The notes under the pieces are model-generated. The model ran no database searches. It was given only the letters and a program-made list of their open reading frames with translations, and was not told the DNA's origin. Shown one piece after another: positions 1,269 to 59,587 of a DNA stretch of 64,000 nucleotides. The DNA lies in NCBI GenBank assembly GCA_964399675.1, contig CAYNRK010000001.1:424-64423 (forward strand), read 5' to 3'. The DNA is from an uncultured Gammaproteobacteria bacterium (GTDB taxonomy: Bacteria; Patescibacteriota; Patescibacteriia; UBA9934; GWF2-40-263). The translations under genes were made by a program, and so were the position numbers. Each line of letters opens with the position of its first letter. Position 1 is the stretch's first letter.

Positions 1269-1286
1269 CATTCACTTTCTAAATTT

Positions 1287-1943: not shown

Positions 1944-2019
1944 GGCCCTTAGCTCAGTTGGCTAGAGCGTCGCATTCGCATTGCGAAGGCCAGCGGTTCG
2001 AATCCGCTAGGGTCCACCA
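1943..2019 (+). tRNA. tRNA-Ala (anticodon CGC), CCA encoded; its 5' end overlaps the HAD stop codon by 1 nt
   Basis: gggccct acceptor with a G3:U70 wobble (the Ala identity element), anticodon stem tcgca/tgcga with loop ttCGCat, canonical T-arm ggttcgaatcc. Confidence 0.85.
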
Positions 2020-2040
2020 AGTTTAATAAATATTCAAATT

Positions 2041-2484
2041 ATGAAGCCAGGCACCGATTATACAGGGGTTACAACTGCTTTTTACTGTACTGATGGAAGT
2101 GGCAGGTTTCTTTTTCACAAAAGGAGCGAGAGCTGTAGAGATGAGCACGGAAAATGGGATTGTGGTGGTGGAAAATTGGAGTTCGGGTGTTCATTAAAAG
2201 AAAATGTTTTGCGAGAAGTTCAGGAGGAATACGGTTGTCCAGGAAAGATATTAAAGCAACTTCCTGCGCATTCAATGCATCGAGAATGGAAAGGTAAAGC
2301 TTTGCATTGGGTTGCTATATCTTTTATTGTTTTAATTAAAGCATCAGAAGCCAGAAATAATGAACCTGAGAAAATTTGTGAAATCGGATGGTTTGAATTA
2401 GATAATCTTCCTAGTCCACTTCATCCAGCAGTTAAAAAGGAAGTTAAAGACAGCCTTGAAGTTTTTAAGAAGTATTCAAAATAG
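2041..2484 (+). CDS. NUDIX hydrolase
   Basis: Clear Nudix box 'GGGKLEFGCSLKENVLREVQEEYG' (GX5EX7REUXEEXGU). Confidence 0.8.
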   Translation: MKPGTDYTGVTTAFYCTDGSGRFLFHKRSESCRDEHGKWDCGGGKLEFGCSLKENVLREVQEEYGCPGKILKQLPAHSMHREWKGKALHWVAISFIVLIKASEARNNEPEKICEIGWFELDNLPSPLHPAVKKEVKDSLEVFKKYSK

Positions 2485-2493
2485 AAAAAAGAA

Positions 2494-2524
2494 GTGCCGA
2501 TGTTCAACCATCGGTATTTTGTTT
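2494..2524 (+). terminator. Rho-independent terminator after the NUDIX gene
   Basis: Hairpin gccgatg-ttcaac-catcggt followed by a T-run. Confidence 0.6.
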
Positions 2525-2776
2525 CTCGAGAAACAAAGAAAAAATTGAAAAAATATAAGAATTTGCTAATATTAGTAAAGAAATTGATACTGTCGTTTTT
2601 TCTTCGGAATCTTAATTTAATTTTACGACACGTCGTTGTCCACACCTGCGTAGACAAAACTCAAAATCTGTGGATAAGCAGGCCATTTTTGGCCACTTTT
2701 TGATTTTGAACAAAAATAAACGTTTTTTTGACCTATTTGTGGGTAACTTTTTAGCTAAGATTAGCTAAATTCTCCG

Positions 2777-2805
2777 TTGACTACTTTTGGTATTCATGGT
2801 ATACT
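2777..2805 (+). promoter_or_regulatory. Sigma70-like promoter of the surface-protein operon (TTGACT-17-TATACT), preceded by two TTAGCTAA palindromes at 2751-2758 and 2761-2768
   Basis: Near-consensus -35 and -10 hexamers with a 17-nt spacer. The promoter overlaps the ORF-track start at 2787, so the real start is the ATG at 2826. Confidence 0.55.
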
Positions 2806-2825
2806 GTATTTGTATAGGTAGAACT

Positions 2826-3731
2826 ATGTTCAAACGCATTCTTACCTTTTCAATTGTGGGGATTTTTCTATATGTGAACTTTGTTCACGCAGAAATGTCC
2901 TCAACAAATTACAAGATTAGGTGGGACTCGTTCAGCACCGGTGGTTCTGATACATCAAGCTCAGCGAGTTATATTGTGCGAGATTCTATTACAGCTACAG
3001 CCACAGGATCTGGGTCCAGCTCTTCCTATCAACTACAGGACGGTTACGCGTCTGCCATTGATGATCAGATCATCTCATTCTCTCTAAAGATCCAAGATGT
3101 ATCAGACGAGCGAACTGCAACAGCTTTGGCAAGTACAACCGTGACAACGGATACAACAGGGGTTTCGGTTGATGATTACATACTCATTGTTCAAGACAAG
3201 GGTGCAAGTCAGGTGAGTGCCATTGGAAAGGTTTCTTCAATAGGAGCGGGCACACTGACTGTTGACTCGCTCACAACTTCTGGAAGCACACCCACAATTG
3301 ATGGAACAAACGATTATGTCTATCAACTAGATGGAAGCGCGATCACATATCCTACATTAAGTGATTCATATGTAAGAACAGCTGTGATCGGGTTTGAAGT
3401 CAGTTCACGGGTTGATAACGGATACGTTGTGCAGGTACTTGAAGATGGAAACATGAGAAATGATTCTGATGATATTGACGATGTGTCAGACGGTACAGTT
3501 ACCGCAGGAAGTGAAGAGTATGGTGCGCGTTCATCAGATTCATCATTATCAAACTCAACATTTGATACTGAAGATGCAGCAATCACGACTTCGTTTAAAG
3601 AAGTCGCTTCAACCACTTCTATGAGTTATGAAAGCCGGAACTTCATTACATTGAAAGCGGCAATTGCCACAGAAACACAGGCTGGATCGTATAGTCACAT
3701 CATCTCACTTATTGCTTCTGGAAATTACTGA
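2826..3731 (+). CDS. Secreted Ser/Thr-rich protein of unknown function, first gene of the surface operon
   Basis: Start moved to the ATG at 2826 (MFKRILTFSIVGIFLYVNFVHA = signal peptide), downstream of the predicted promoter. S/T/D-rich sequence with no recognisable catalytic motif. Confidence 0.55.
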   Translation: MFKRILTFSIVGIFLYVNFVHAEMSSTNYKIRWDSFSTGGSDTSSSASYIVRDSITATATGSGSSSSYQLQDGYASAIDDQIISFSLKIQDVSDERTATALASTTVTTDTTGVSVDDYILIVQDKGASQVSAIGKVSSIGAGTLTVDSLTTSGSTPTIDGTNDYVYQLDGSAITYPTLSDSYVRTAVIGFEVSSRVDNGYVVQVLEDGNMRNDSDDIDDVSDGTVTAGSEEYGARSSDSSLSNSTFDTEDAAITTSFKEVASTTSMSYESRNFITLKAAIATETQAGSYSHIISLIASGNY

Positions 3732-3732
3732 T

Positions 3733-4659
3733 ATGAAACGAGCTCTTTCCATTATCTGCTTCGTTGTTCTCGCATGGATTCCTTGCGCTGCATTTGGCGC
3801 CACTGTTGCACCGGCTTTAATTGAAGTAAGTGCAAGCCGCGGAGAAACAATTGAAAGTTTTTTTCAGGTGATCAATGCAAGTACAACTGAGCAGAAATAT
3901 TATCTGGGTGTGATGAAGTTTGAACCAACTGAAGGAACTGGAGCACCTTCCTTTATCTCGTATGAAAAAGATCGTTCCGGTCTTCCGGAATGGATCGATT
4001 TTCAAGTGAATGAATTTCCAGTGCCAGCAAATTCCAAGGTGGATGTACCGTTTACCATTGCCATTCCAGATGACATTTCCTCAGGAGGATATTATTCCGC
4101 ACTTACTGTCTCAAACGCTCCGCACGATATCGTTGCAACCAATGGTGCGATTGTGGATGCAAAGACAGCCGTGCTTGTTCTTTTAACGGTTGAAGGTGAA
4201 ACAAACGAAAGCGCAGTGCTTTTAGATCTTGTTTCAGACGTTGAGGGTAAGGCAGTCTCTTCAATAAAAGGAGAGTTTGTATATCGTATTCAAAACCAAG
4301 GTAATGTTCATGTTAGGCCAGAAGGCGTTCTCAGATTCAAGGATGTCTTTGGTAGGCAGATTTATTCTCAAGCCGTGAATGAAAAACAGGGAAGGGTCCT
4401 GCCATCATCAACAAGAACTTACAAAGAAGAAGTTGATCTTGGTGAAAATAGTTTTCTTGGAGCACTGAACTTTCAAATGAGAACATTGCTTGTTGGTCCT
4501 GTTACAGCTGAACTTGATTTGAAATATGGACAACAAGGACAATTGTTTGCAAAGACAAGTTTCTGGTTTGTTCCATGGCAGTTAATGATCTCGATTCTGA
4601 TTCTCGTCATTGTCGTTGTGTCCCTTTATAAAAAAAGTGCTAGGAGGTCTCGCACATAA
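3733..4659 (+). CDS. Cell-surface protein with N-terminal signal peptide and C-terminal TM anchor plus basic tail
   Basis: ATG at 3733 (MKRALSIICFVVLAWIPCAAFG), 2 nt after the upstream stop. The C-terminus 'WQLMISILILVIVVVSLYKKSARRSRT' is a TM helix followed by a positively charged tail. The architecture resembles DUF916-type surface-anchored proteins, at low confidence. Confidence 0.55.
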   Translation: MKRALSIICFVVLAWIPCAAFGATVAPALIEVSASRGETIESFFQVINASTTEQKYYLGVMKFEPTEGTGAPSFISYEKDRSGLPEWIDFQVNEFPVPANSKVDVPFTIAIPDDISSGGYYSALTVSNAPHDIVATNGAIVDAKTAVLVLLTVEGETNESAVLLDLVSDVEGKAVSSIKGEFVYRIQNQGNVHVRPEGVLRFKDVFGRQIYSQAVNEKQGRVLPSSTRTYKEEVDLGENSFLGALNFQMRTLLVGPVTAELDLKYGQQGQLFAKTSFWFVPWQLMISILILVIVVVSLYKKSARRSRT

Positions 4660-4672
4660 TTAGATCCCATGT

Positions 4673-7600
4673 GTGCAAAGTACAATTCGAAACATTTGGT
4701 ACACCCTATCAGTCGCGGCTATTTCAGTGGCGATTGTTGTGGTTGCGCCAGTGCATGCTGCAACCGTAACTAGTGGAAACGATTATCCGTCTACTTTGCA
4801 AACAAGTCAGGCGTCTAATCACAAGGTGTTCTTTACAACTCCAACAGGTGTGTCCGAGGGTTCAACAATAACCCTCACATTTGAATCAGAGTTTGATACA
4901 TCATCTATTACAGAAAACGATGTTGATATAGATGATGATGGGATTGATCTTACAACAGCTGCAAATTGTTCAGGATCTGAGGAAGCTTCCATTGCGATTG
5001 CTTCAGACGTTATAACAATAACGATCTGTTCAGGAGACGGTGGTGCAATTGCTGCGACAAGTGTTGTCACCATCGAGATCGGGGATAATGCGACAAGTTC
5101 TGGCACGGGCTCTAATCAGATCACCAACCCATCAGTAACCGCAAACTACAATCTCAATATTGCAGGAACTTTTGGAGATTCCGGATCCATTATTCTACCT
5201 ATTGGATCTGACGATTCTATAGTTGTCAGTGGAATTGTTCTTGGGGGCGGTGGAGGCGGTGGTGGAGGAGGAGGAGGTGATGAACCTGAACCGGAAGAAC
5301 CAGATGATGCAACAGCTCCTGTAATCAGCAATATCCTGACTTCAGAGATAACAACCACTTCAGCAACGATTACCTGGGATACTGATGAATCAGCAAATAG
5401 CTTTGTCGATTATGGTTTAACAGAAGAATTTGAAAGTGGTACTGAGAGTGATGCAAGTTTTGTTACACCTCATTCCATTGGTCTAAGTGGGCTTACAGAG
5501 GGGGCAACATATTCTTTCCGTATTCGATCTCAAGACAGTAGTTCTAATGAAGTAACTTCTGCAACACAAACTTTCACAACCCTTGATGAAACAGCGCCGG
5601 TCGTCACAGACATTGATGTAGTAGATATCACAACCACGTCAGCGCGCATTACATGGACGACAGATGAAGCAGCATCGAGCGCGGTTGAGTATGGTCTGAC
5701 AGATGAGTATGGAGATACAGAATCAGACGTTGCACTAGTTACTGATCATTCAGTGATTCTTACTGATCTTACTGATAACACCTCGTACAATTTCCGGATT
5801 ATTTCTGCGGATGCTTCTTCCAATCAGGTAACCACTGAAGATGCAACATTCACAACAGATGAAGATCTTCCACCAGCAAACGTGTCGGGTTTAAGTCTTA
5901 CAGCTGGAGACGGGGAGATAACTGTGACAATGACGAATCCTGAAGATAGTGATTTAGAAGGAGTGAAAATTATTGTTTGTGAAGATGAGGCACCATCCGG
6001 TCCACAAGATCCAGACTGTGAAATAATTTTTGACGGACTTTCAGAAACGTTTACACACATAGGACTCACCAATGGCAACATTTATTACTATGGAGTTTTT
6101 GCCTATGACAGGGCAGGGCAGTTCTCTTCTGGTGCGATTGAATCAGGTACACCAATCGCGCTAGAAGATGAGGTGCAGGAAGAAGAGGAGCCCGAAGCTG
6201 AGGAGCCCGAAGTGGGCGCCGAAGCTGAGGAATCCTTAGAAGATTCTGAAGACGCAGCAGATTCTGGATTAGGAGATTCGGCCGGTGAAGCGGGCGAATC
6301 AGATGATTCAGATGATGGAGCATCTTCAGGTGCTGACATCCCATCAGACACGAGTACGGGGTCAGATTCTGGTACAGGTTCGGGTACTGGAAGTTCGTCC
6401 TCTGGAGTGTCAGGAGATTCTTCTCTGCAAGGCGCAGTTGAAGGTCAATTGGATCGCACAGATGTGCGCATCCTCGTTGGTGCCGGTAAATTGATTCTTC
6501 GATCCACAAGCTCAGGTGTGATCGAGATAATCAAAGACACTAAGGTCACCATAGAGATTCCCGCAAGTGAGCTGGGTCAGGGAATCGTCAAGTCTGTCCA
6601 ACTAACAGTTGGATCAGATACATATCTTATGCGTCCCGTTACAGAAGGGGACGTGCACGCTCTTTATCGTTTTGAGCGCTCAAGCAAGAAACTCTCTCAG
6701 GGATCGCGCATTACCCTTGCGCAGTTCCAAGAGGAACCGATAGAGGCCTATCAGGCCGGCGTTGTTATTCCTTCTGAGCTTGGTTTGCATGAGCTCACGA
6801 TTACCGCCACGTATGAGAACAACAAAACCTCTTTTGTTTCTTCATACCTCAGCGTCCTGGCAGCCGGTCAGGTCATTGGGGACATCGATGGTGAAGAAAC
6901 TACACTTGGTGAAGTTGCTCTTACAGTTCACGAGAAAATTGGAAAAGAATTTATTGTCTGGGATGGGTCGTCCTATAATCAATTCAATCCATACGTGACA
7001 ACAAGCGGTTCGTTTGCTTGGTATGTTCCAAACGGAACTTACAAAGTCGTTGCCTCAGCCAATGGGTTTGAGGTGTATGACTCAGGAGCGTTCATTGTAA
7101 GCAACTCCATCATCAATCCACTTGTTGTGCTTCTTCCTCTGGTCAAGGAAGAGCCGGACAATGTGTTGCAAGAGGTTGCGCTGGCAACAACAGAAGTGGC
7201 GACAACTGTTGTTGAAGCAGTAACCGAAACATTCAGCGCTGTTACAGAATCAGAAGTGGCAAAAGCCATTGATGAAGGATTGGAAGCGGTTCGTGAGCTT
7301 CCTGGTGTAGAGGAAGCTGCCGAAATCTCAGTTCCAACCTTAGCGGTTACTGCAGGTGCAAGCGTTGTGGTGATGACAATTGCGTTCGATTTTCTACCAC
7401 TTCTTCAATATTTTTTCACTGCCCCAATTCTATTTTTTGGGCGCAGACGGCGAAAGGGCCATGGTGTTATTTATAACGCCATTTCAAAAGAGCCCGTGGA
7501 CTTAGCCGTGGTCCGACTCTTTCAACTTGATGCGAAAAATCCAACAGCGCGCGGGAAATTGGTCAAATCTCGTGTAACCGGAAAAGGTGGTCAGTACTTT

Positions 7601-8395
7601 TTCTTGGTAAAGCCTGGAATATATCGCATTGAAGCCACAAAGGCTGGATTCGATTTCCCATCGAGTTTCTTGAAAGAGAAAAAAACTGACGGTTCTTACC
7701 TTGATGTATATCACGGCGAGACCGTTACGGTTCGTGATGAAGGAGCAATCATCTCAGCGAATGTTCCTATAGATCCATCACAATCAGCAAAATTCACCAC
7801 ACCAGCAAAGATCATTTTCCAAGAACGGTTGCGAATGGTGCAACGTGGAATTGCATATGCAGGAATCCTTGCTTCAGTGGTGTTTGCAATCATTCGACCC
7901 GACATGCTTGCGGTCGGAATGGTTGTTGTACAGGGCGGTGTGTATTACCTGGCACATCGATTAGCTGCACCGCCCAAGTTGCGTAGTTGGGGAATTGTAT
8001 ATGACGAACAAACCAAACGTCCTCTTGCAAACGCTGTAGCTCGTATCTTTGAACCAAAGTACAACAAACTGCTTGAAACAAAGATAACTGATAGTAAAGG
8101 ACGTTATGCATTCTTGCTTGGTCCAAGTAAGTATTACGCTGTGTTTGAAAAACAAGGATTCCGTCCAACACAACTTAAGGGAATCGATTATCAAGGGAAT
8201 CAAGCGGCAACACCGTTTACAGAAGATGTTGGTATGAAGTCAGTTGATGGAAGCACGTCTCAAATGCCTCTTATAAATTCTTCTACCCCCTCGACAAGCT
8301 CGGGGAGTATTAACGAGAAAAAAATATCGCCTGAGCCTGTCGAAGGCCAGCAGTTAGACAGAGATCCAGACGATAAAACTCAATTCCAATTATGA
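4673..8395 (+). CDS. Large surface protein (1240 aa): signal peptide, tandem fibronectin-III-like domains, poly-Gly/acidic linkers, carboxypeptidase-regulatory-like beta-sandwich repeats and C-terminal TM helices
   Basis: Repeated blocks 'TSATITWDTDE..S.VDYGLT.E..S..S......H...L..L...T.Y.FRI.S.D.S.N' are FN3-like. The blocks 'GKGGQYFFLVKPGIYRIEATKAGFDFP' and 'GRYAFLLGPSKYYAVFEKQGFRP' are carboxypeptidase-regulatory-like. There is a G14 tract and E/D-rich low-complexity sequence, and hydrophobic helices near residues 880-960. Confidence 0.6.
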   Translation: MQSTIRNIWYTLSVAAISVAIVVVAPVHAATVTSGNDYPSTLQTSQASNHKVFFTTPTGVSEGSTITLTFESEFDTSSITENDVDIDDDGIDLTTAANCSGSEEASIAIASDVITITICSGDGGAIAATSVVTIEIGDNATSSGTGSNQITNPSVTANYNLNIAGTFGDSGSIILPIGSDDSIVVSGIVLGGGGGGGGGGGGDEPEPEEPDDATAPVISNILTSEITTTSATITWDTDESANSFVDYGLTEEFESGTESDASFVTPHSIGLSGLTEGATYSFRIRSQDSSSNEVTSATQTFTTLDETAPVVTDIDVVDITTTSARITWTTDEAASSAVEYGLTDEYGDTESDVALVTDHSVILTDLTDNTSYNFRIISADASSNQVTTEDATFTTDEDLPPANVSGLSLTAGDGEITVTMTNPEDSDLEGVKIIVCEDEAPSGPQDPDCEIIFDGLSETFTHIGLTNGNIYYYGVFAYDRAGQFSSGAIESGTPIALEDEVQEEEEPEAEEPEVGAEAEESLEDSEDAADSGLGDSAGEAGESDDSDDGASSGADIPSDTSTGSDSGTGSGTGSSSSGVSGDSSLQGAVEGQLDRTDVRILVGAGKLILRSTSSGVIEIIKDTKVTIEIPASELGQGIVKSVQLTVGSDTYLMRPVTEGDVHALYRFERSSKKLSQGSRITLAQFQEEPIEAYQAGVVIPSELGLHELTITATYENNKTSFVSSYLSVLAAGQVIGDIDGEETTLGEVALTVHEKIGKEFIVWDGSSYNQFNPYVTTSGSFAWYVPNGTYKVVASANGFEVYDSGAFIVSNSIINPLVVLLPLVKEEPDNVLQEVALATTEVATTVVEAVTETFSAVTESEVAKAIDEGLEAVRELPGVEEAAEISVPTLAVTAGASVVVMTIAFDFLPLLQYFFTAPILFFGRRRRKGHGVIYNAISKEPVDLAVVRLFQLDAKNPTARGKLVKSRVTGKGGQYFFLVKPGIYRIEATKAGFDFPSSFLKEKKTDGSYLDVYHGETVTVRDEGAIISANVPIDPSQSAKFTTPAKIIFQERLRMVQRGIAYAGILASVVFAIIRPDMLAVGMVVVQGGVYYLAHRLAAPPKLRSWGIVYDEQTKRPLANAVARIFEPKYNKLLETKITDSKGRYAFLLGPSKYYAVFEKQGFRPTQLKGIDYQGNQAATPFTEDVGMKSVDGSTSQMPLINSSTPSTSSGSINEKKISPEPVEGQQLDRDPDDKTQFQL

Positions 8396-11300: not shown

Positions 11301-14300
11301 TTCTGGAAACGCAACATTTGCAGGAGACTTAACAGTAAGCGGAACACTTTCTGGAGTCTCAGATATTGGTGGAACAACCGCAACAACATTTACTCTTGAT
11401 ACAGACAGCTCTGGAGTTGCTGATCAGGATTTATATTTTTATTTTGAGGACGACGAAGCTGCAACAGCACATTATCTTGGTTGGGATGATGGGCTTGATT
11501 CTTTCCTTTTTAATGATGAGGTTTCTCCAGCAACCGCCGGAACTCCAACACTTGGTCTTACAACAAATGAATGGGATGGACTTTATATTGGAGATGATGG
11601 GGTTGGGGTAACTTTTGGAGCTGGACAGGAATTCGTTGCCACTCACAATTCAACAGATTCAATAATGAGTTTTAGAACAGCACAAACCGCCTCTTTAGAT
11701 ACAGATACTGCTATTTATACTTTTGCAGCAGATACGGCAAACGCTGGAATGACAGCAAGCAGCGAAGTGTTTGAAATTGGTTATGGCGATGTTGATGACT
11801 CAGCAGCCAATTGGACAGAGCTTTTCTCAGTTAGGGAAGATGGAGATGTTCAAATTGGTGGTAACAGGTTGACCACAAATGGCATCACATCCATGAACCT
11901 ATTTAACGAAAACGTACTTACAGCCAGTGTTTTGACAACCGCAACAGACATAACAATAGGTGCTGTTGCTGGTACGGTTTCATTGCAAGGTGACCTGGCA
12001 GTCAACGGAGACGATATTACTTCAGATGGTGACCTCACCATTGACGCAGCTGGCGGACAAGTTCTTTTTGCAGATGGGGATGTTTTTAATATTGGGGGTG
12101 CTTCGGGTGTTGCTTATAACGTTATTGGTGACAATACGGATAATGTTAGTGGCACACCAAACTCTGATGACGACCTTTATATTGAGGGAAACATTGAGGT
12201 GGATGGTGCATTCAATTTTGATAGTTCAGGTTCTTTCGAAGGTCCTGTGACTATTATTACGGGCGCACTTAGAGTAAACAGCGATTCAATTACATCAGAC
12301 TCAAATCTTGATATTTCAGCAACTGGGTATGTTCGGATTGGTGATACCGGAACCCCTGGAGTTGCAAATGGAGATGATGATCTTTATGTTGAAGGCGGTC
12401 TGGAAGTTGATGGAGAAACAGAGCTTGATGGCGCGCTTGATGCTGATGGCCAAGTTGATTTAGGTGATAACGGAGACACAGTTGCCATTAACTCTTCTGA
12501 CTGGGACATTGGCACGGATGGAACGATTACAGGCGTTGATTTTGATGCCAATGGTTCCGGCAACTCTCTTTCAAATGTTGATGCAGCAGATATAACAGAT
12601 GACTCATTAGATTTTACAGAGTTTGATGACTCAATGTCGCTTGATGCTGCATTGACTGTATTAGGTGGGGCAGGTGAGACAATTACTTGGTCTCGCACTC
12701 TGACTAATGCCACTGCAGAGAAGGCAATGACGCTTAATGTAACTCCTAGCGATTCAACCGGTGCAACAACAGAGCAGTATGGTCTCTATATTGATAACAC
12801 CAGTAGTTTGAGTTATGCAGTGGATGCTTTACTTGTTATTGACAACTCTCATACTTCAGACTCTGATGATGTTGGAGCAGGGATTCGTTTTGAATCTAAT
12901 GTAGGAGATTTTCTTTATGGCATTGACATGAACAGTGCCACAGTGCAAACCTCTGATATTCGTCTGTCAAATGGAGAAACTATTTCAAACACAGCAGACG
13001 GAACCATTGCCATAACAGCAACCGATACAACAATTTCCGGCAATCTTTCTGTTGATGGAAATGCCAATCCAGCAAATGCTGGTCAAGAAACTCTTGGTAC
13101 AACAGCTCTTGAATGGGACGGGCTCTTTGTTGGTGATGATGGGGTTGGTGTTACATGGGGTGCTGGGCAGGATTTGGTGGCCGCATTTGACAATGCGAGC
13201 GACTCACTTGAATTTATTGGATCACTTGTTTCAATCGGTGCTGAAGCCGACAATACAACGGCAACAGGTGATAATGATTTATTTGTTGTAGGTGATTTTG
13301 AGGTGAACGGTGCCACAGACTTAGATGGAAATCTTTTAGTAGCTGACACTGACATTGCTTTTGATGGAGCTTCAACAACTTTTACAACAACTGGTGCTTT
13401 CACACTTACTCCAGGAGGCGCAACTCTTTTAGGAGACGGTGTAAACACAATGCAAATCAATTCTTCTGATTGGGATATTGGTACAGACGGAACGATTACA
13501 GGTGTTGATTTTGATGCTAATGGAACAGAGAACTCTCTTTCAAATGTTGATGCAGCAGATATAACAGATGACTCACTCACTTTTGCACAAATTAGCGACT
13601 CCTCAGCCATTGATACTGATACAACCTTTACAGCAGCTGACGGAGTTCAGCTCACACTCACCCCAACGCACACAAACGGTGATACAAATTTTTTCACAAT
13701 TAACGCAGATCAAACCGATGATGGTGATGGCACAGATGATTTCTATGCCATAAAACTTGATCTTACATCTGAGAGCGGGGACACAGGAGATACATTCCGA
13801 GGAATTGGTATTGAATGGGAAGAAGGAACAGCAAATACTGTTATGGATGCTGCCATTAGGATTGATAATGAAGAAACAACAGACTCCACCATAACGGATG
13901 CAATTATTATTACTTCCTCAGGTGTTGAAGCAGGCGTAGTAGATGCGCTTGATGCATCTGATTCAAACATCACGAACGCCCTGAACATTGGTACTAATAA
14001 TATTGTTTTTGACACAATGCGTCAGTACGGTTCATCTTCAACAGTTCTTACTTGGGATGATGGTGGTAATACAATGATGACACTTACAGACAATTCAAAC
14101 GAAGGTGATCTTGTGATTACAGGTGATCTAACAGCAGATGACTTTTCTTGTACTTCAGGCGACTGTTTGGACTTTACAGAATTGTCTGACACCATGGCTC
14201 TTGACACAGCAACCTCAATTACCGGTACTGCTGGTGAGACTTTTACATTTACTCGTACCGGAACCGCAGCTGCAAGCGAAAATGGTGTGGCAATTGGGAT

Positions 14301-17300
14301 GACAATCGGACTTTTAGACGGAATGTCACGACAACAGAATGGTTTGGAGATTACGGTTACAAACGAAGCGGATCATGAAGGCTCAACAAACATTATAACC
14401 GGACTTAATGTTGCAGCACTTGGAACCGCAGATGCTGAGGCTTGGGAAAGAGGGATTCAGATTAATGCTGGTTGGGATCACAATATACTTTTTAATGATA
14501 CAACAACAAATATCGGAGTGGCAGATGGGGGTACGATCACTTGGAATGATAATAATAGTCAGACTTTGATGACACTTACAGATGATTCAGACGAAGGAGA
14601 TTTGGTTGTAACAGGGTCTGGAGATTTTGATGAATTAACAGTTGATGAAAATGGACTTGGAATTGATGTTGCAGCTGCCGGACAGCTAACAATTGGAGGT
14701 ACAAATGCAACAACTATTTCAATATGTAATTCAGCTGATTGTGCAGTGGTTGATATTGCAACTAATGCGTCTGCAGACAATATTTATTTAGGGGATGTTG
14801 CAGATACCGTTGCAATAAGAGGAGCAGCAGGTTCTTATGTTAATTTTCCATATTTTGATATTGCAGCAAACACAAACTTCATGACATTTACTCCTAATAC
14901 AACAGGAACGGTTCTTGATTTTGATCTTGAAACAGAGTGGACAACAGGAGATCTTATTAATGCTGATTGGGATTCGTCTACTGCTATGACAGGAACTTCA
15001 GTGACAGGAATTGATCTTGATTTTACAAACGCAACAGCAACTCAAGATGTTGATTGGAATGGAATAAATGTAAAATCTCCAAGCTCAACATCGTTAAGCG
15101 GTAATACAACAACAAATCTTGTTGGGTTTAATATCCCATCTGCAGCAACATTAGACACAACTGGAGCTGCAGGAGATACAACAATTGTTTCTTGGATTGG
15201 AAACCAGATTTATACACCAGACATTGATACAGGAGCAGGAGAAACAAATGATGTTGTTACTTCAGTTGGGATTGCAATTATGGGTGGTACGGTTACAAAT
15301 GGAGGTGGAACTGAAAATCAATACGGGATAACGTTTGGAAATATTCAAAGCGATATTATAACAGGCAACGGTGAAGAGCTTGATGTTACAGCAGGAGACG
15401 GATCAGGTGCTGCTGGAGGAGCGCTTGATTTTAATGCTGGAGCAGGAGCTGCAACATATGATGGAGGAGCTGCAACAATGAACGCTGGAGACGGTGGGAT
15501 TGCATCAGATGGAGTGGATGTTGGTGGTGAGGGTGGAGGCGTAACAATAGCTGCTGGTAATGGAGGTGCAGGAATAATGGTTCTTGATGCCGGCGATGGT
15601 GGTGCATTAACTATTTCATCTGGAACAGGTGGTGCAAGAGCCATGGCTGGAACAGGTGCTGGAGGACTTCTTACAATTAGTGCTGGAGACGCTGGATCAT
15701 CAGCAACCGCAGAGTCAGCCGCAGGCGGGTCTGTTCTGATTACAGCCGGTGATGGAGAAGGTACAGGAGCAGCGGGCGACGGAGGTTCTATTACACTCAA
15801 CCCTGGTGATGCAGAAAGTGCGAGTGGTCAGTACGGAGCGATTGTTCTTGAGGGGGCAATAGATTTTGGAACTCAAGCAGCATTTGCTGATGGAGATACA
15901 GACCCTTCTGTTGAGCAAGGATCATTTTTTAGAACAGTAAATACCAATCCGGTTGGTGTAACAATTACAAATTTTGATGATGGAGTTGCCGGTCAGATTA
16001 TATTTATTGAAAATGTCGATACCTATAATACTATATTTTCTGAGGCTGGTGCAACAATAAGCCTTGGAACAAATAATATTACTACAGGCAGTGGAGACTT
16101 TACCGTTTGGATGTTTGACGGATCTGTTTGGCACCTTGTTTCATACATGCCTAGTTCTGCCAACAATTCAAACGGTGATGGTTTTGACGTTGCTGAGTGG
16201 TATCCGGCCTCAGAAGATGTTGTTCCCGGAGAAGTTGTGATTGCAAATTCAAATAGCTCTGTTGAAGTTAAGAAAAGCTCAGCACAATATCAAACAGCAT
16301 TGCTCGGTGTTGTTTCAACCCAACCAGGCCTTATTTTGGGAAGTGAGGGTGAAAGCACTTTTGCAGCTCAAGTAGCACTTGCCGGTCGTGTTCCGGTTAA
16401 AGCTACAAATGAAAATGGCGCAATCAAAGTTGGTGATTATCTTACAAGCTCAAGTGTTAGTGGACACGCAATGAAAGCCACAAAAGCCGGTCCGGTTGTT
16501 GGAATGGCGCTTGAGGATTTCAATGAAGCAACTGGAACCGTTCTTATGCATGTTAGCTCTGGTTGGTATGCAGGTGGAGTAATCGGAACCGATGGAACTT
16601 CAACTCTTATTACAGACAATGCGGTGATGGCTCCGCTTGGCATTGCAACAGAAGAAACACCAGACTTTGATTCGTATGGTTTGAGTTTGCGTGGCTCAGC
16701 TTGGAATGGAGCAGAGGCAGTTAACAAGCAAATGACACTTGTTACAGATATTACAAACGCAGATTCATATCGACTGTCAGTTCGTGACACAATTGGAACA
16801 GAAGTTGCTTACATCACAAACGAAGGAACAATGAGTATCTCTGGTGACATGGTGATTGCCGGAAAGCTTTATCCATCTGACAGAGGCGTTGCACAAACTG
16901 AAAAGTATATTTACTACGACGGTTCATCAGGGCCGGGTGGAGATTTTATGCGTACAAACGCAAGTGGTTGGTCAACAGGCTCATACGACTTTGCTGAAAT
17001 GTTCCCGTCCAATCAAGCGCTTCTGGCTGGTGAGGTTGTTGCGTTTTCTGGCGATGGAATAAATGTTTCAAGATCACTCAATTCACATGACAGCAAGTTG
17101 GCAGGAATTGTCTCAACTCGTCCGGGATTTTTGGCTGGCGAAAATTTAGCTGGTAATTATCCGGTTGCTTTAGCTGGGCGTGTGCCAACAAAAGTTGTTC
17201 TTGAAAATGGCGTGATTGAAGTCGGTGACGCTCTTACAAGTTCATCAACTCCCGGATCTGCCATGAAGGCAACAGAATCCGGAATGATTATTGGTTACGC

Positions 17301-18213
17301 TCTTGAGCCATACACAGGATCACAAAACGATGATCGGATAGTTGTATTTGTAAACGTTGGTTATTTTGCCGGAGAAAGTCTGGGAGCAACTCCTGGCGCG
17401 CAAAATACAGCATCTGAGTTTGCTCAAAGTTTTGCCACAAGTTATACGTCCCTAAACATGAGCGGAAATATTTACATGACCGGTAATGAGATTTTGAGTA
17501 TTGGAAAACTTGCCGGCATCTCAGACAACTGGTCTATTGATCAAGATGGAACAATGAAGACAAAGAGTCTTCTCAAGACTGTAATCACTTCACATCAAGG
17601 TACACAAGTTGAAACAATCGCTGTAACTTCACCAGAAGCAATCATCACGCTTTCAGGCACAACCGAACTTAAAGACGGCCAAGCAGAGGTCAGATTTGAA
17701 AAAGTCATTCCTGAATACAATGATGTAATTTCAGCCTGGGCGCCGATTCGTGTTGTTGTTACTCCAATGGGACCTGTCTCACTTTATGTTGAGCACAAAG
17801 ATCAGAATGGATTTATTGTAAAACGATTTGGAGGAAATGAAGTTGATGTTGAGTTTGATTGGATGGTAACTGCTTATCGCAAAGGCTTTGAGCCGGAGGA
17901 AGATGTTGAAGAGATCCGAGAGGTGGAAGATGTCCGAGAGGTGGAAGAAGAGGTAGCCCCAGGCTTTAGCCTGGGCGAAGAGGTCAGGGAAATTGAAAAA
18001 GATGAACCAATTACAGAAGAAGAAAAAGTTGAAAATGAAGAGGAAGATTCATTGGTCCCATTGGTCGAATCCGACCCATTGAATAACGAAGAGGTAGTTT
18101 TAGATGATCCCGCACCTCAGGTGAGTCCTGATGAAACCCCAGTCGATCCTTTGGTTCAAGATGATGGTGGCATACTTGCCGAGCAACCATCTGAACCAGT
18201 ATCGAACCCTTAA
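8392..18213 (+). CDS. Giant (3273 aa) repetitive cell-surface / fibre-like protein. It starts inside an ATGA overlap with the upstream gene
   Basis: N-terminal signal-anchor (MIRTLRSKFINLFTIISMLVMVFGVTGILSAASA) and a 'YALNADTLDGIDSSSFL' motif typical of fibre proteins. Four or more 'LAVNGDDITSDG(N/D)L' repeats and duplicated 'SSDWDIGTDGTITGVDFDANG' modules. A Gly/Ala-rich beta-helix-like stretch (aa approx 2320-2480). Two tandem approx 170-aa C-terminal domains, and an acidic tail containing 'EEIREVEDVREVEEE'. Confidence 0.65.
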   Translation: MIRTLRSKFINLFTIISMLVMVFGVTGILSAASAPNIITYQGRILNSNGVPVSDASLAIVFALYDASTDGTCVWSNSSASCATTTTIAVSLTSGLFTENLGDTDDSYAAIGDSIFSDNATLYLEVIVAGETLTPRKRITAAPYALNADTLDGIDSSSFLQASGGDLELTGSLSVGDGAPNRITPDDEEVYIEGALEVDGAAYFDNRIAANLSSATDSFINLTSTGDFIFYDNGTAAMTIDDSGDVTLAGGLAVNGDDITSDGNLEIEATGYVRVGDSGVPTTASSDDDLFVTDDLEVDGIGRFDLGASDYLLVNAASFDSTTTTGALSIYVDSETNNNRGIFLDYEFLDDDDGTDTGVGMFMNLYNTTADDGDTIYGIHIDQVTSNIGTDALIRLENSDTDAADAVINAILIDGAGAITDAIDAADSDIENALHIDANFIRHNNLRTAEIDINTLTWEDVSGNDLMTLTDNSNTGDLVLTGDLAVNGDDITSDGNLDIIATTYVGVGSESPSSATGAGDLFVSDAIEIDGLSYLKGQVQTSSNVLATLDGTEQFRVDITGTGSFLVRDGAADIFVLDDEGAVTFTLDSIDDPAFTITNNGSSNVTTNLASTGDFVIQDNGTPAFTVDDSGDVTLAGDLAVNGDDITSDGDLTINPAGGQVSLADGDTLNIGGTAAGQAYNVIGDSVATASGQTDSDDDLYIEGDLEVDGLVVFQGSQFQIDALPTTATTGVIDVDISTVTAGVEGLNIYITQSDGSASGADVEAINLTLAANDADGDMFGIDIVANATDNAAAGSYEALIRLSNTEPTASTVTDALLVTTSSGTSGDIVDAVDASAGDITNALNAGSNFVLFNGTRAYSSSSTVLVFEDTAGNDLMTVTDAGTTGNLAVSGSLAVTGNLVASSDVSCTDCLDFPDFEDTLDFDSDTQFTQNGTETLTFSNQGTGAITFDLTSTGDFIVADDGTPAFTVNDSGNATFAGDLTVSGTLSGVSDIGGTTATTFTLDTDSSGVADQDLYFYFEDDEAATAHYLGWDDGLDSFLFNDEVSPATAGTPTLGLTTNEWDGLYIGDDGVGVTFGAGQEFVATHNSTDSIMSFRTAQTASLDTDTAIYTFAADTANAGMTASSEVFEIGYGDVDDSAANWTELFSVREDGDVQIGGNRLTTNGITSMNLFNENVLTASVLTTATDITIGAVAGTVSLQGDLAVNGDDITSDGDLTIDAAGGQVLFADGDVFNIGGASGVAYNVIGDNTDNVSGTPNSDDDLYIEGNIEVDGAFNFDSSGSFEGPVTIITGALRVNSDSITSDSNLDISATGYVRIGDTGTPGVANGDDDLYVEGGLEVDGETELDGALDADGQVDLGDNGDTVAINSSDWDIGTDGTITGVDFDANGSGNSLSNVDAADITDDSLDFTEFDDSMSLDAALTVLGGAGETITWSRTLTNATAEKAMTLNVTPSDSTGATTEQYGLYIDNTSSLSYAVDALLVIDNSHTSDSDDVGAGIRFESNVGDFLYGIDMNSATVQTSDIRLSNGETISNTADGTIAITATDTTISGNLSVDGNANPANAGQETLGTTALEWDGLFVGDDGVGVTWGAGQDLVAAFDNASDSLEFIGSLVSIGAEADNTTATGDNDLFVVGDFEVNGATDLDGNLLVADTDIAFDGASTTFTTTGAFTLTPGGATLLGDGVNTMQINSSDWDIGTDGTITGVDFDANGTENSLSNVDAADITDDSLTFAQISDSSAIDTDTTFTAADGVQLTLTPTHTNGDTNFFTINADQTDDGDGTDDFYAIKLDLTSESGDTGDTFRGIGIEWEEGTANTVMDAAIRIDNEETTDSTITDAIIITSSGVEAGVVDALDASDSNITNALNIGTNNIVFDTMRQYGSSSTVLTWDDGGNTMMTLTDNSNEGDLVITGDLTADDFSCTSGDCLDFTELSDTMALDTATSITGTAGETFTFTRTGTAAASENGVAIGMTIGLLDGMSRQQNGLEITVTNEADHEGSTNIITGLNVAALGTADAEAWERGIQINAGWDHNILFNDTTTNIGVADGGTITWNDNNSQTLMTLTDDSDEGDLVVTGSGDFDELTVDENGLGIDVAAAGQLTIGGTNATTISICNSADCAVVDIATNASADNIYLGDVADTVAIRGAAGSYVNFPYFDIAANTNFMTFTPNTTGTVLDFDLETEWTTGDLINADWDSSTAMTGTSVTGIDLDFTNATATQDVDWNGINVKSPSSTSLSGNTTTNLVGFNIPSAATLDTTGAAGDTTIVSWIGNQIYTPDIDTGAGETNDVVTSVGIAIMGGTVTNGGGTENQYGITFGNIQSDIITGNGEELDVTAGDGSGAAGGALDFNAGAGAATYDGGAATMNAGDGGIASDGVDVGGEGGGVTIAAGNGGAGIMVLDAGDGGALTISSGTGGARAMAGTGAGGLLTISAGDAGSSATAESAAGGSVLITAGDGEGTGAAGDGGSITLNPGDAESASGQYGAIVLEGAIDFGTQAAFADGDTDPSVEQGSFFRTVNTNPVGVTITNFDDGVAGQIIFIENVDTYNTIFSEAGATISLGTNNITTGSGDFTVWMFDGSVWHLVSYMPSSANNSNGDGFDVAEWYPASEDVVPGEVVIANSNSSVEVKKSSAQYQTALLGVVSTQPGLILGSEGESTFAAQVALAGRVPVKATNENGAIKVGDYLTSSSVSGHAMKATKAGPVVGMALEDFNEATGTVLMHVSSGWYAGGVIGTDGTSTLITDNAVMAPLGIATEETPDFDSYGLSLRGSAWNGAEAVNKQMTLVTDITNADSYRLSVRDTIGTEVAYITNEGTMSISGDMVIAGKLYPSDRGVAQTEKYIYYDGSSGPGGDFMRTNASGWSTGSYDFAEMFPSNQALLAGEVVAFSGDGINVSRSLNSHDSKLAGIVSTRPGFLAGENLAGNYPVALAGRVPTKVVLENGVIEVGDALTSSSTPGSAMKATESGMIIGYALEPYTGSQNDDRIVVFVNVGYFAGESLGATPGAQNTASEFAQSFATSYTSLNMSGNIYMTGNEILSIGKLAGISDNWSIDQDGTMKTKSLLKTVITSHQGTQVETIAVTSPEAIITLSGTTELKDGQAEVRFEKVIPEYNDVISAWAPIRVVVTPMGPVSLYVEHKDQNGFIVKRFGGNEVDVEFDWMVTAYRKGFEPEEDVEEIREVEDVREVEEEVAPGFSLGEEVREIEKDEPITEEEKVENEEEDSLVPLVESDPLNNEEVVLDDPAPQVSPDETPVDPLVQDDGGILAEQPSEPVSNP

Positions 18214-18459
18214 TCGTCAATGCGGTTAGGACTAAATAGGCCAAGGCTCCCATACCTATACATTGCCCCCACGCAATGTTGGCCACGAAGCCGTTCTGAC
18301 TGCGTTGAAGAAACGTTCTTTCTACAACGCCTATCCCGGTATTATCCGGGGCTTATGTGAGTTTAAACAAAACCCTTGTTTAAGTTTGCATAGACCCAAA
18401 TGGGTCACACACAATTTCATAGCATTAAGCGCGGGATCCCCACACTCGCGCTTTTTGCA

Positions 18460-18495
18460 TTCCCGCGCCTAGAGCGCGCGCCTAGAGCGCGGGAA
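18460..18495. repeat. GC-rich hairpin repeat ttcccgcgc-(cctagagcgcgcgcctaga)-gcgcgggaa. A second copy is at 40309-40347
   Basis: Perfect 9-bp inverted termini ttcccgcgc/gcgcgggaa that contain a tandem 'cctagagcgcg'. The core 'cctagagcgcgggaa' is shared with the 40.3-kb copy. Confidence 0.5.
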
Positions 18496-18513
18496 ATCAT
18501 TTTTTGCTATACT

Positions 18514-20901: not shown

Positions 20902-20951
20902 AAACCCGTGTAAAGCACACGGGTTTTTTGATCGAGCTTAGCTCGATTTTT
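20902..20951 (+). terminator. Tandem rho-independent terminators
   Basis: aaacccgtgt-aaagc-acacgggttttttg, followed immediately by atcgagc-tta-gctcgatttttt. Confidence 0.65.
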
Positions 20952-55347: not shown

Positions 55348-55355
55348 AATTTGAT

Positions 55356-56441: not shown

Positions 56442-56453
56442 GGTGTCTTCGAT

Positions 56454-56909: not shown

Positions 56910-56923
56910 GATAAGAGCATATT

Positions 56924-59071: not shown

Positions 59072-59074
59072 TTT

Positions 59075-59584: not shown

Positions 59585-59587
59585 TTT

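What the first reader, a model, noticed from the sequence alone, without database searches (positions are those of the whole stretch)
2751..18213. Four-gene co-directional operon ending in a 3273-aa giant surface protein
A near-consensus promoter (TTGACT-17-TATACT at 2777-2805) drives four signal-peptide proteins in a row. The genes are tightly packed: a 2-nt gap between the first two, and an ATGA start/stop overlap at 8392-8395. Together they span more than 15 kb, about 24% of the window. The set is a secreted S/T-rich protein, a C-terminally TM-anchored protein, an FN3/carboxypeptidase-regulatory-like 1240-aa protein with TM helices, and a 3273-aa repeat protein with a fibre-like 'NADTLDGIDSSSF' N-terminal region, Gly/Ala beta-helix-like repeats and an acidic tail. 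This architecture is typical of the host-attachment apparatus of episymbiotic bacteria. No component has a known catalytic motif. The whole unit is a candidate uncharacterised adhesion/fibre system.
Basis: partly seen in the sequence, partly recalled or inferred. Interest (0 to 1): 0.65.

Follow-up and report, generated by a model that had tools for sequence, protein, structure and literature searches.

The report
Pam-like pilus operon with giant fibre
This is a real, tightly conserved five-gene surface-appendage operon of Uhrbacteria, tiny bacteria thought to live attached to other cells; it is a stripped-down relative of the "Pam" pilus described in 2026, always paired with a giant protein built like a phage tail fibre, so it is a new variant of a newly known system, not an unknown one.

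Summary
Four co-directional secreted or membrane proteins (A 2826-3731, B 3733-4659, C 4673-8395, D 8392-18213) lie behind a near-consensus promoter. Order A-B-C-D is kept in about 60 Uhrbacteria species genomes, and the promoter recurs in 53 of 70 orthologous loci. Corrections: the A-B gap is 1 nt, and a fifth gene E (18400-20901, membrane protein with TPR repeats) follows D wherever D's end is seen.

The unit is a distant branch of the CPR "Pam" pilus (bioRxiv 2026).
- A matches NCBIfam PamT (E 1e-13) and Pam_pilin_C (E 7e-7), both below curated cut-offs.
- B folds (pLDDT 94) like chaperone-usher chaperones and WxLIP, and has a C-terminal membrane helix like PamC/D.
- C starts with the N-terminal domain type of two-domain pilins in related loci, then a linker-like strand, poly-Gly, FN3 domains and a membrane module. 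This makes it a PamR-like anchor.
- D is a mosaic fibre with conserved ends, a weakly MAT-like N-terminus and two phi29-gp12-type chaperone domains (DVAE/DFAE).

Assembly by strand complementation, A polymerisation and D docking are inferred, not shown. Verdict: new variant of a known kind; interest 0.55.

The parts
2777..2805 (+). Sigma-70-type promoter: TTGACT, 17 nt, TATACT, with TG extended -10. About 20 nt separate the -10 from the ATG, so the leader is very short.
   Evidence: best match in 19 kb; the same promoter at the same distance in 53 of 70 orthologous loci, against 6.3 expected.
2826..3731 (+). Gene A, 301 aa, a PamT-like pilin. Signal peptide aa 1-22. N-module aa 23-80 with three S-x-x-Y-x-[ILV]-x-D motifs. 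Inserted beta domain aa 81-165. Pam_pilin_C-like C-terminal domain aa 166-301, ending in the conserved IASGN[FY].
   Evidence: NCBIfam PamT E 1.2e-13 and Pam_pilin_C E 7.2e-7, both below cut-offs. The N-module alone hits PamT profile positions 27-80 at E 6.6e-7. In the AF2 model, aa 1-79 have pLDDT below 50 and aa 80-301 mostly above 90. Weak but recurrent Foldseek hits to CfaB, PapA, CsuA/B and FimA. 1130 family representatives.
3733..4659 (+). Gene B, 308 aa: signal peptide, two Ig-like domains, a C-terminal TM helix (aa 282-307) and a basic tail. A membrane-anchored chaperone of PamC/D type and WxLIP-like fold.
   Evidence: AF2 pLDDT 93.7. Foldseek: WxLIP 9i1y/9i25 at E 1e-11; CfaA, CsuC, Caf1M, DraB, EcpB and CupB2 at E 1e-10 to 1e-8. 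Always adjacent to A.
4673..8395 (+). Gene C, 1240 aa, the membrane anchor/stalk. Signal peptide. Pilin-NTD-type domain aa 30-176 (nt 4760-5200). Linker-like strand DDSIVVSGIV aa 180-189 (nt 5210-5239). Poly-Gly aa 191-202. FN3-type domains aa about 215-500. Acidic/Ser-rich linker. Ig-like region. Conserved module of TM segments plus two CarboxypepD_reg domains aa 885-1192 (nt 7325-8248).
   Evidence: Pfam; TM scan. The N-terminal domain profile also hits the N-terminal half of about 350-370-aa two-domain pilins in related loci. C-like anchors elsewhere start with the strand V.V.ATVP. The C-terminal module is conserved at E 1e-94 to 1e-149 in most distant loci that carry it.
8392..18213 (+). 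Gene D, 3273 aa, a giant mosaic fibre. Signal/anchor segment. Conserved N-terminal domain aa 30-165 including NADTLDGIDSSS. Mosaic repeats aa 170-2075. Gly/Ala-rich stretch aa 2251-2500. Phage_depo_C-like sandwich aa about 2507-2580. Two gp12-type chaperone/autocleavage domains (DVAEWY at 2599, DFAEMF at 2866). Acidic tail aa 3120-3273.
   Evidence: NCBIfam Bdello_MAT_N E 3e-8, below cut-off. Self-similarity. Conserved ends and variable middle in orthologues. D/A/E/F motif residues invariant or nearly so. PDB 3gqh E 0.018; Pfam Peptidase_G2 in 7 of 13 orthologues; Phage_depo_C E 9e-6. Only weak jumbo-phage hits.
18400..20901 (+). Gene E, 833 aa (or 792 aa from the ATG at 18523): a polytopic membrane protein with a C-terminal TPR domain.
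   Evidence: It follows D in all 15 loci where D ends inside the locus. In variant loci it sits upstream of the pilin or after D. Only TPR repeats are recognised. No promoter-like or terminator-like site was found in the D-E gap.
20930..20948 (+). Terminator-like hairpin with a T-run just after gene E; a possible end of the transcription unit.
   Evidence: 8-bp stem, 4 GC pairs, followed by TTTT. It is a consensus match only.

Best explanation
The operon encodes a minimal Pam-type cell-surface appendage, held together by beta-strand complementation and coupled to a phage-tail-fibre-like adhesin.

Proposed steps:
1. All products are exported by Sec (inferred from their signal peptides).
2. B, a two-Ig-domain chaperone tethered to the membrane by its C-terminal helix, holds A's incomplete Ig-like C-terminal domain.
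3. C is the anchor and stalk. It carries a pilin-type N-terminal domain and a linker strand (DDSIVVSGIV), but no acceptor domain. It would plug that strand into A's C-terminal domain, fixing A to the membrane through FN3 domains and a conserved multi-TM module.
4. A is PamT-like: an N-terminal module of three SxxY motifs, an inserted domain and an acceptor domain. It either caps C singly or also polymerises through its N-module.
5. D is a trimeric mosaic fibre. Its folding is driven by two C-terminal phi29-gp12-type intramolecular chaperone domains that may cut themselves off. Its conserved N-terminal domain would attach it to the A/C structure or to the envelope, and its variable middle and tip would bind a partner cell.
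6. E is a conserved membrane TPR accessory protein of unknown role.

Shown here: the homologies, the folds of A and B, the gene linkage and the promoter conservation. Inferred: every physical interaction and the adhesive function.
For: - A is related to Pam. PamT E 1.2e-13 and Pam_pilin_C E 7.2e-7. The two halves are independently significant. 44 of 49 distant family members hit both models.
- The A model has a conserved but unfolded N-terminal 57 aa and a confident all-beta body. Its recurrent structural matches are chaperone-usher pilins.
- B has pLDDT 93.7 and a chaperone/WxLIP fold plus a C-terminal TM. This is the PamC/D architecture described in the preprint.
- C's N-terminal domain type is fused to the Pam_pilin_C-like domain through 'DDQVTVSATVDPS' in about 350-370-aa pilins of related loci, which is the PamA/B layout.
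- C-like anchors elsewhere begin with the bare strand V.V.ATVP right after the signal peptide. This matches the PamR idea.
- P0316 and P0313 fuse the A-type N-module to a C-type body.
- Linkage: A-B-C-D in every sufficiently long locus of 80 species genomes, with E after D in 15 of 15. The cassette recurs with about 220-aa pilins in metagenomes.
- D has conserved ends, a variable middle, twin D-x-A-E motifs and Peptidase_G2/3gqh similarity.
- The preprint reports a tail-fibre-like gene central to pam neighbourhoods.
- Loci with giant adhesins that end in the pilin domain show the classic 'adhesin plus pilin domain' logic.
Against: - A scores far below NCBI's cut-offs: 51 against 240 bits, and 29 against 55 bits.
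- B, C and E hit no Pam model.
- Foldseek matches of A to pilins are all above E 1e-3.
- No two-domain major pilin exists in the 64-kb window, so a long filament is not assured.
- No complex prediction could be run, so strand insertion by C, A-A polymerisation and D docking are untested.
- B's best structural match is WxLIP, which serves a non-polymeric system.
- The window copy of D does not itself reach Pfam Peptidase_G2, and the PDB profile E-value is only 0.018.
- No expression or localisation data exist.
Confidence: 0.6

Rival explanations
1. WxL-type static surface complex. B acts like Firmicute WxLIP: a membrane-anchored holder that binds monomeric A at the cell surface by inserting a beta-hairpin. 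There is no strand exchange between subunits and no filament. C and D are independent surface proteins that merely share the operon.
For: B's top Foldseek hits are E. faecium WxLIP structures 9i1y and 9i25, at E about 1e-11. WxLIP has the same layout of two Ig domains plus a C-terminal TM (PMC10599100). No major pilin gene lies in the window.
Against: A has no WxL motif and a single Trp. B gives no DUF916/DUF3324 hit in Pfam. A is homologous to Pam pilin models. C carries a pilin-type N-terminal domain plus linker strand. The strict five-gene linkage argues for a single machine.
Confidence: 0.15
2. A true homopolymeric pilus. A polymerises head-to-tail through its N-terminal SxxY module into a long filament. 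C only terminates and anchors it. D is a separate adhesin that is not physically attached to the pilus.
For: A has both a conserved, monomer-disordered N-module and an acceptor domain. In P0316 and P0313 the N-module sits exactly where other anchors carry the donor strand, suggesting that it too binds the acceptor domain. A's family is very large and conserved, as expected of a major structural subunit.
Against: The preprint models PamT as a single tip subunit, not a polymer. Presence of the N-module tracks presence of D (23/3/3/8, p 5e-4, not corrected for phylogeny), which fits a D-docking role equally well. No test of A-A docking was possible.
Confidence: 0.2
3. Prophage or tailocin remnant. 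D is a phage tail fibre and its neighbours are phage structural or accessory genes.
For: D has phage-type chaperone/autocleavage domains and a Phage_depo_C-like domain. There are weak hits to jumbo-phage virion proteins.
Against: None of the four proteins has a significant PHROG match: A, B and D gave no hit, and C only a marginal one (phrog_4971, E 0.0035) over its FN3 region. D's N-terminus has no phage match. The cassette sits at the same chromosomal place, next to RmuC, S20, holA, polA or HAD genes, in many species. Composition is typical of the window. Similarity to phages covers only about 115 aa at 32-36% identity.
Confidence: 0.03

Closest known systems
Pam pilus of Candidatus Mycosynbacter amalyticus (Troman et al., bioRxiv 10.64898/2026.03.03.709456; NCBIfam NF058579 PamT, NF058581 Pam_pilin_C)
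   Same: Restricted to CPR bacteria. All components are Sec-exported. A is homologous to PamT (N-module plus C-terminal pilin domain). The chaperone-like protein has a C-terminal membrane helix (PamC/D). The anchor contains FN3 domains, a membrane segment and an N-terminal strand element (PamR idea). A tail-fibre-like gene is a neighbour. No usher or dedicated trans-envelope machine is present.
   Different: - The lineage is Uhrbacteria (Parcubacteria group), which the preprint's text does not name.
- There is one pilin-type gene instead of four or five, and no PamA/B-type two-domain major pilin; that N-terminal domain is instead part of the anchor C.
- A has an extra 85-aa domain.
- The anchor is 1240 aa with a conserved multi-TM/CarboxypepD_reg module, whereas PamR is small.
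- There is one chaperone, not two.
- A TPR membrane gene is conserved.
- No ATP synthase gene was seen among the window ORFs I annotated.
- All scores are below NCBI's curated cut-offs.
Chaperone-usher pili (Pap, Fim, CFA/I, Csu)
   Same: The chaperone fold of B. An Ig-like pilin domain is suggested for A. Related loci show the logic of a tip subunit with an acceptor domain and of 'adhesin plus pilin domain' proteins.
   Different: No outer membrane and no usher. The chaperone is membrane-anchored. There is no detectable sequence similarity, and structural matches of A are weak (E 4e-3 to 0.1).
WxL/WxLIP (DUF916-DUF3324) surface protein clusters of Firmicutes
   Same: B's best structural match. 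Same layout of two Ig domains plus a C-terminal TM. Encoded next to the secreted protein it would hold.
   Different: No WxL domain, no LPXTG partner and no Pfam DUF916/DUF3324 signal. The partner A is Pam-pilin-like.
Bdellovibrio MAT (mosaic adhesive trimer) fibres (PMC10769870) and phage tailspikes with a C-terminal intramolecular chaperone (phi29 gp12, PDB 3gqh)
   Same: D has a conserved N-terminal domain (weak Bdello_MAT_N match), a mosaic variable shaft and a C-terminal chaperone/autocleavage module with a D-F-A-E motif. For MAT, the surface element that binds the N-terminus is also unknown.
   Different: D is 3273 aa. It carries two gp12/G2-type modules rather than one S74 module, plus a long acidic tail. 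It is fixed in a pilus-type operon in a CPR bacterium. The similarities are below family cut-offs.

Membership tests
Pam pilus system (NCBIfam/preprint) | Pilin C-terminal domain reaches the NF058581 cut-off (55 bits) | tested here: not met
   29.4-30.5 bits, E 3e-7 to 7e-7 over the whole 148-position profile. Significant homology, but below the cut-off.
Pam pilus system (NCBIfam/preprint) | PamT equivalog score (240 bits) | tested here: not met
   51 bits, E 1.2e-13. A has an 85-aa insertion that the model lacks.
Pam pilus system (NCBIfam/preprint) | PapD/FimC-like two-domain chaperone with a C-terminal TM helix, encoded beside the pilin | tested here: met
   AF2 pLDDT 93.7 with helix 282-307. 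Foldseek hits to chaperone-usher chaperones at E 1e-10 to 1e-8. Adjacent to A in all loci.
Pam pilus system (NCBIfam/preprint) | Two-domain major pilins (N-terminal domain, linker strand, C-terminal domain), as in PamA/PamB | tested here: not met
   [quoted passage not shown] The N-terminal domain type occurs only at the start of C.
Pam pilus system (NCBIfam/preprint) | FN3-containing membrane anchor with an N-terminal donor strand (PamR) | tested here: inconclusive
   C has FN3 domains, TM segments and a linker-like strand at aa 180-189, and related anchors start with V.V.ATVP. Strand insertion was not tested, and C hit no NCBIfam Pam model (the only Pam models any query matched were PamT and Pam_pilin_C).
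Pam pilus system (NCBIfam/preprint) | Filament assembled by donor-strand exchange | not testable with these tools
Chaperone-usher pili | Outer-membrane usher | tested here: not met
   No usher family in Pfam or NCBIfam scans of A-D or E.
Chaperone-usher pili | Incomplete Ig-fold pilin subunit | tested here: inconclusive
   Recurrent but weak Foldseek matches to CfaB, PapA, CsuA/B and FimA: E 4.8e-3 to 0.17, target TM-score 0.36-0.52.
WxL/WxLIP clusters | DUF916/DUF3324 sequence families, a WxL-domain partner and an LPXTG partner | tested here: not met
   No such Pfam hits for B. A has no W-x-L motif, and no LPXTG motif occurs in A-E. Only the fold of B matches.
Bdellovibrio MAT fibres (NF053851) | N-terminal domain reaches the cut-off (60 bits) | tested here: not met
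   33.6 bits, E 3e-8, D aa 28-111.
Bdellovibrio MAT fibres (NF053851) | Mosaic fibre: invariant N-terminus and swappable shaft/tip | tested here: met
   The N-terminus and the C-terminal 740 aa are conserved, while the middle is variable and internally repeated. Orthologues span about 990 to 3273 aa.
Peptidase_G2 / phi29 gp12 intramolecular chaperone (PF11962, PDB 3gqh) | D-F-A-E autocleavage motif and domain similarity | tested here: inconclusive
   DVAEWY at 2599 and DFAEMF at 2866, with D, A, E and F invariant or at least 90% conserved. PF11962 hits 7 of 13 orthologues (best E 7.6e-7) but not the window copy. 3gqh E 0.018. Cleavage is untested.
   No LPXTG motif, no SLH or S-layer Pfam hits, and strict linkage.

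The most novel reading that the evidence does not exclude
The operon builds a hybrid organelle not yet described. C is a membrane-anchored stalk. A caps it by strand complementation. A's N-terminal module of three SxxY motifs is not a polymerisation strand but the socket that holds the conserved N-terminal domains of the trimeric, phage-tail-fibre-like D. The pilus machinery would then serve to mount an exchangeable giant fibre for capturing a partner cell. This would also name the kind of 'unknown surface element' that MAT-type fibres bind.
Probability: 0.2. Interest if true: 0.75.

Novelty: new variant of a known kind. Interest (0 to 1): 0.55.

Why it matters
CPR/Patescibacteria are a large share of bacterial diversity, and how they attach to partner cells is mostly unknown. 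The Pam pilus was structurally defined only in 2026, in one Saccharimonadia parasite.

This locus shows a reduced, strongly conserved version in Uhrbacteria: one PamT-like subunit, one tethered chaperone and an anchor that has absorbed the pilin N-terminal domain. It is always joined to a giant mosaic fibre and a TPR membrane protein.

It gives concrete, testable predictions:
- which strand completes which domain;
- whether PamT-type N-modules dock the fibre;
- whether the fibre self-cleaves at Y|DFAEMF.

It also suggests that Pam-type systems, together with their tail-fibre partner, are much more widespread and modular than reported. A's family has 1130 representatives at 50% identity.

Tried and rejected
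1. C's N-terminal domain as an A-like pilin domain. A profile built from A3 hit C, but the signal came from the shared C-terminal TM/CarboxypepD_reg module of fused proteins in A3; the N-terminal 'match' scored -14.7 bits. Profile-profile hhalign of C's N-domain against A's N-module, middle domain and C-terminal domain gave probabilities below 1%. Rejected. C's N-domain instead matches the other (N-terminal) domain of two-domain pilins.
2. Direct identification of D. There was no PDB sequence hit and no PHROG, and full-length Pfam gave nothing useful. Only an orthologue profile of the C-terminal 740 aa revealed the gp12-type modules.
3. The last large protein search, on D's N-terminus, returned only Uhrbacteria fragments and added nothing.
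4. E's membrane domain. Pfam, NCBIfam and a PDB profile recognised only the TPR part. A glycosyltransferase or O-antigen-ligase-like role remains a guess without support.
6. The metagenome scan with the 50-sequence short-pilin alignment failed because it was too diverse. It worked with 14 sequences.
7. Prophage origin was rejected (plus conserved chromosomal context).
8. Exact-sequence cluster look-up gave no names or organism for the window. The Uhrbacteria assignment rests on the names of homologues.
9. Rfam found only tRNAs in the window.

Full report
**Observation**

The four ORFs exist as described:
- A, 2826-3731, 301 aa
- B, 3733-4659, 308 aa
- C, 4673-8395, 1240 aa, GTG start
- D, 8392-18213, 3273 aa

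The promoter is TTGACT (2777-2782), a 17-nt spacer and TATACT (2800-2805), with a TG extended -10. It is the best sigma-70 match in 1900-21000 (10/12 plus TG), although the overall number of promoter-like sites there is what chance gives.

The spacing needs one correction. A and B are separated by 1 nt (TGA T ATG) and B and C by 13 nt. C and D overlap in ATGA, as stated.

Signal-peptide-like N-termini, B's C-terminal helix, C's FN3/CarboxypepD_reg domains and TM segments, and D's NADTLDGIDSSS motif, Gly/Ala-rich block and acidic tail are all present.

**Reality and linkage**

A has 352 relatives in the word-indexed search. The best 120 are about 300 aa and 50-60% identical, and those with names are 'Candidatus Uhrbacteria' or Patescibacteria. 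B has 69 relatives, several with locus tags adjacent to A homologues.

A scan of one genome per species confirmed 97 loci, of which 80 were fetched. Local profile annotation finds A-B-C-D in that order in every locus long enough to show it.

D's first 170 aa and its C-terminal 740 aa are conserved. The middle varies, and total length runs from about 990 aa to 3273 aa.

A fifth gene, E (18400-20901), encodes a polytopic membrane protein with C-terminal TPR repeats. It follows D in all 15 loci where D ends inside the fetched DNA. No promoter-like or terminator-like site lies in the 186-nt D-E gap, and a terminator-like hairpin follows E at 20930-20948.

The promoter is phylogenetically conserved. 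53 of 70 orthologous loci have TTGACN-17-TATA(A/C)T at 10/12 or better, against 6.3 expected. The -10 usually ends 19-21 nt before the ATG, which implies a very short leader.

**What the proteins are**

*A.* NCBIfam matches A to 'CPR-type pilus protein PamT' (E 1.2e-13) and to the 'Pam pilus system pilin subunit' C-terminal domain (E 7.2e-7, full profile length). Both scores are well below the curated cut-offs.
- The two halves are independently significant. The mature N-terminal 63 aa alone match PamT profile positions 27-80 (E 6.6e-7), and aa 80-301 match Pam_pilin_C (E 3.3e-7).
- With a 65-sequence alignment, AF2 gives a confident all-beta body (aa 80-301, mostly pLDDT above 90). Residues 1-79 stay below pLDDT 50.
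- Yet aa 23-80 are among the most conserved in the family: three S-x-x-Y-x-[ILV]-x-D motifs.
- Foldseek against the PDB gives only weak hits, but they are repeatedly chaperone-usher pilins (CfaB, PapA, CsuA/B, FimA, the PapG pilin domain).

*B.* The model has pLDDT 93.7: two beta-sandwich domains followed by a C-terminal helix. It matches E. faecium WxLIP (E 1e-11) and then many chaperone-usher chaperones (E 1e-10 to 1e-8).

*The published system.* The Pam preprint describes pilins assembled by donor-strand exchange, PapD/FimC-like chaperones that carry a C-terminal membrane helix (PamC/D), a tip protein PamT, an FN3-type membrane anchor PamR whose N-terminal strand is predicted to enter the last pilin, and a tail-fibre-like gene as a constant neighbour.

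**The wider family explains C**

An exhaustive profile search with A's family finds 1130 representatives. They fall into three groups:
- about 220-aa proteins with A's N-module and C-terminal domain but without its middle domain, which is the PamT layout;
- longer proteins with the same C-terminal domain;
- P0316 and P0313, in which the A-type N-module is fused to a body like C (Gly-rich linker, FN3 domains, acidic linker, and the same TM/CarboxypepD_reg module).

44 of 49 of these distant members hit both Pam models.

Metagenome loci seeded with short pilins show the same cassette: pilin-B-C-D, with E either before the pilin or after D. Three further observations bear on C:
- Some loci add pilins of about 350-370 aa. 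These consist of a domain that my profile of C's N-terminal domain recognises (E 1e-22 to 1e-42), the linker 'DDQVTVSATVDPS', and the Pam_pilin_C-like domain. This is the PamA/B architecture.
- The window's C begins with that same domain type (aa 30-176), followed by DDSIVVSGIV and twelve glycines.
- C-like anchors in short-pilin loci begin, directly after the signal peptide, with a strand of the same pattern (for example TESVTINATVPAICGNG).

C is therefore best read as an anchor that offers a donor-type strand and has no acceptor domain. C's N-domain is not related to any domain of A.

Other loci have giant beta-helix-like proteins that end in the pilin C-terminal domain (L142, L145, L156, L125). 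These lack D within the DNA fetched, though L142 and L125 extend too little beyond the pilin genes to be sure. This is the classic 'adhesin plus pilin domain' arrangement.

**D**

D has no sequence match in the PDB or PHROGs. Its N-terminus weakly matches the Bdellovibrio MAT fibre N-domain (E 3e-8, below the cut-off). Residues 170-2075 are a mosaic of internal repeats, and 2601-2732 is duplicated at 2868-2998.

A profile of the conserved C-terminal 740 aa gives three results:
- It matches the phi29 pre-neck appendage chaperone domain (3gqh, E 0.018, aligned on DFAE.F) and a tailspike chaperone domain.
- Pfam Peptidase_G2 hits 7 of 13 orthologues, with a best E of 7.6e-7.
- The window copy has a Phage_depo_C-like domain (E 9e-6).

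Both D-x-A-E motifs (aa 2599 and 2866) are invariant or nearly so among orthologues. From my own knowledge of phi29 gp12, cleavage occurs just before the Asp of this motif; I did not check this here.

Similarity to phages is limited to about 115 aa at 32-36% identity in jumbo-phage virion proteins, and the N-terminus has no phage match. The MAT paper notes that the invariant N-domain presumably binds an unidentified surface element.

**Mechanism**

The best-supported reading is a minimal Pam-type appendage:
- B chaperones A.
- C's strand completes A's C-terminal domain and anchors it.
- D is a trimeric, self-chaperoned fibre that provides reach and specificity.
- E is a conserved accessory protein of unknown role.

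Two points remain open.

First, does A polymerise? For polymerisation: A has both an N-module and an acceptor domain, and the N-module replaces the donor strand in P0316-type anchors. Against it: the preprint treats PamT as a single tip subunit, and the window has no major pilin.

Second, what does the N-module bind? In informative metagenome loci, pilins with the N-module and D co-occur (23/3/3/8, Fisher p 5e-4, or 1e-3 after removing duplicates). This fits a role in docking D, but it is not corrected for phylogeny.

**Comparison and novelty**

The unit works like the Pam system and shares homologous parts with it, but it fails the curated membership thresholds and differs in composition. It has a single pilin-type gene with an inserted domain, and no PamA/B. 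The anchor is a 1240-aa protein with a highly conserved multi-TM module (E 1e-94 to 1e-149 in most distant loci that carry it). The TPR membrane gene is fixed, and the lineage is Uhrbacteria (Parcubacteria group), which the preprint's text does not mention.

It is not a chaperone-usher system (no usher), not a WxL cluster (no WxL, LPXTG or DUF916 signal), and not a prophage. I rate it a new variant of a known kind, of moderate interest.

**Limits**

- Two fold libraries were unavailable.
- The organism of the window is inferred from homologues only.
- All interactions and the adhesive function are inferences.

Noticed in passing
window 18400-20901: A fifth conserved gene: a polytopic membrane protein with a C-terminal TPR domain. 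It directly follows D in 15 of 15 informative orthologous loci and sits upstream of the pilin in variant loci. The membrane domain matches no known family; a GSGPGTY motif is conserved.
   Followed up: partly
window 54358-63574: A separate type IV pilus-type cluster: a T2SSF/PilC-like gene (55356-56441), a 715-aa protein with an N-terminal methylation motif (56924-59071) and a T2SSE ATPase (61338-62687). The genome therefore has two different appendage systems within 64 kb.
   Followed up: no
window 38001-40300: A GC-rich island (GC 0.577, against about 0.42 around it). It holds a 540-aa ORF (38594-40216) with no Pfam match and a long antisense ORF (39140-40258). Rfam finds no rRNA here.
   Followed up: no
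L142:2050-9972, L145:2-10432, L156:5258-10405, L125:1-3507: Giant (1169 to at least 3477 aa) beta-helix-like proteins that end in the Pam_pilin_C-like domain and are followed by further pilins and B-like chaperones. No D-type fibre was found in the fetched DNA of these loci, though L142 and L125 are too short downstream to be sure. This is the 'adhesin fused to a pilin domain' design of FimH/PapG.
   Followed up: partly
P0316 (933 aa), P0313 (715 aa): Proteins that fuse the PamT-type N-terminal module of three SxxY motifs directly to a C-type anchor body (FN3 domains, TM segments, two CarboxypepD_reg domains). Their genomic context could not be looked up.
   Followed up: partly
L121:8753-12799, L149:11485-15297, L165:11515-15300: C-like anchors carry Cys-rich 'CGNG..E.GE.CDDGN...GDGCS..C' repeats after the N-terminal strand. 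They then have a block that looks like the start of a Hint/intein domain (CF.xGTK[IV]L[ML]ADG.EKNIEE).
   Followed up: no
L017, L018, L020, L028, L029 and about 20 other loci: Many MAG records that carry this CPR operon are titled 'uncultured Gammaproteobacteria bacterium'. These are almost certainly placeholder or wrong taxonomic labels in the public records.
   Followed up: no
window 2806-2826 and orthologous loci: The -10 element ends only about 20 nt (in some relatives about 8 nt) before the start codon, and no clear Shine-Dalgarno sequence precedes any of the five genes. This suggests very short-leadered or leaderless translation.
   Followed up: partly
window 1193-2019 and 22567-22642: tRNA-Arg(CCT) and tRNA-Ala(CGC) lie just upstream of the operon region, and tRNA-Ala(GGC) lies downstream. 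The HAD hydrolase gene between the two upstream tRNAs is also the upstream neighbour of the operon in 14 related loci.
   Followed up: no
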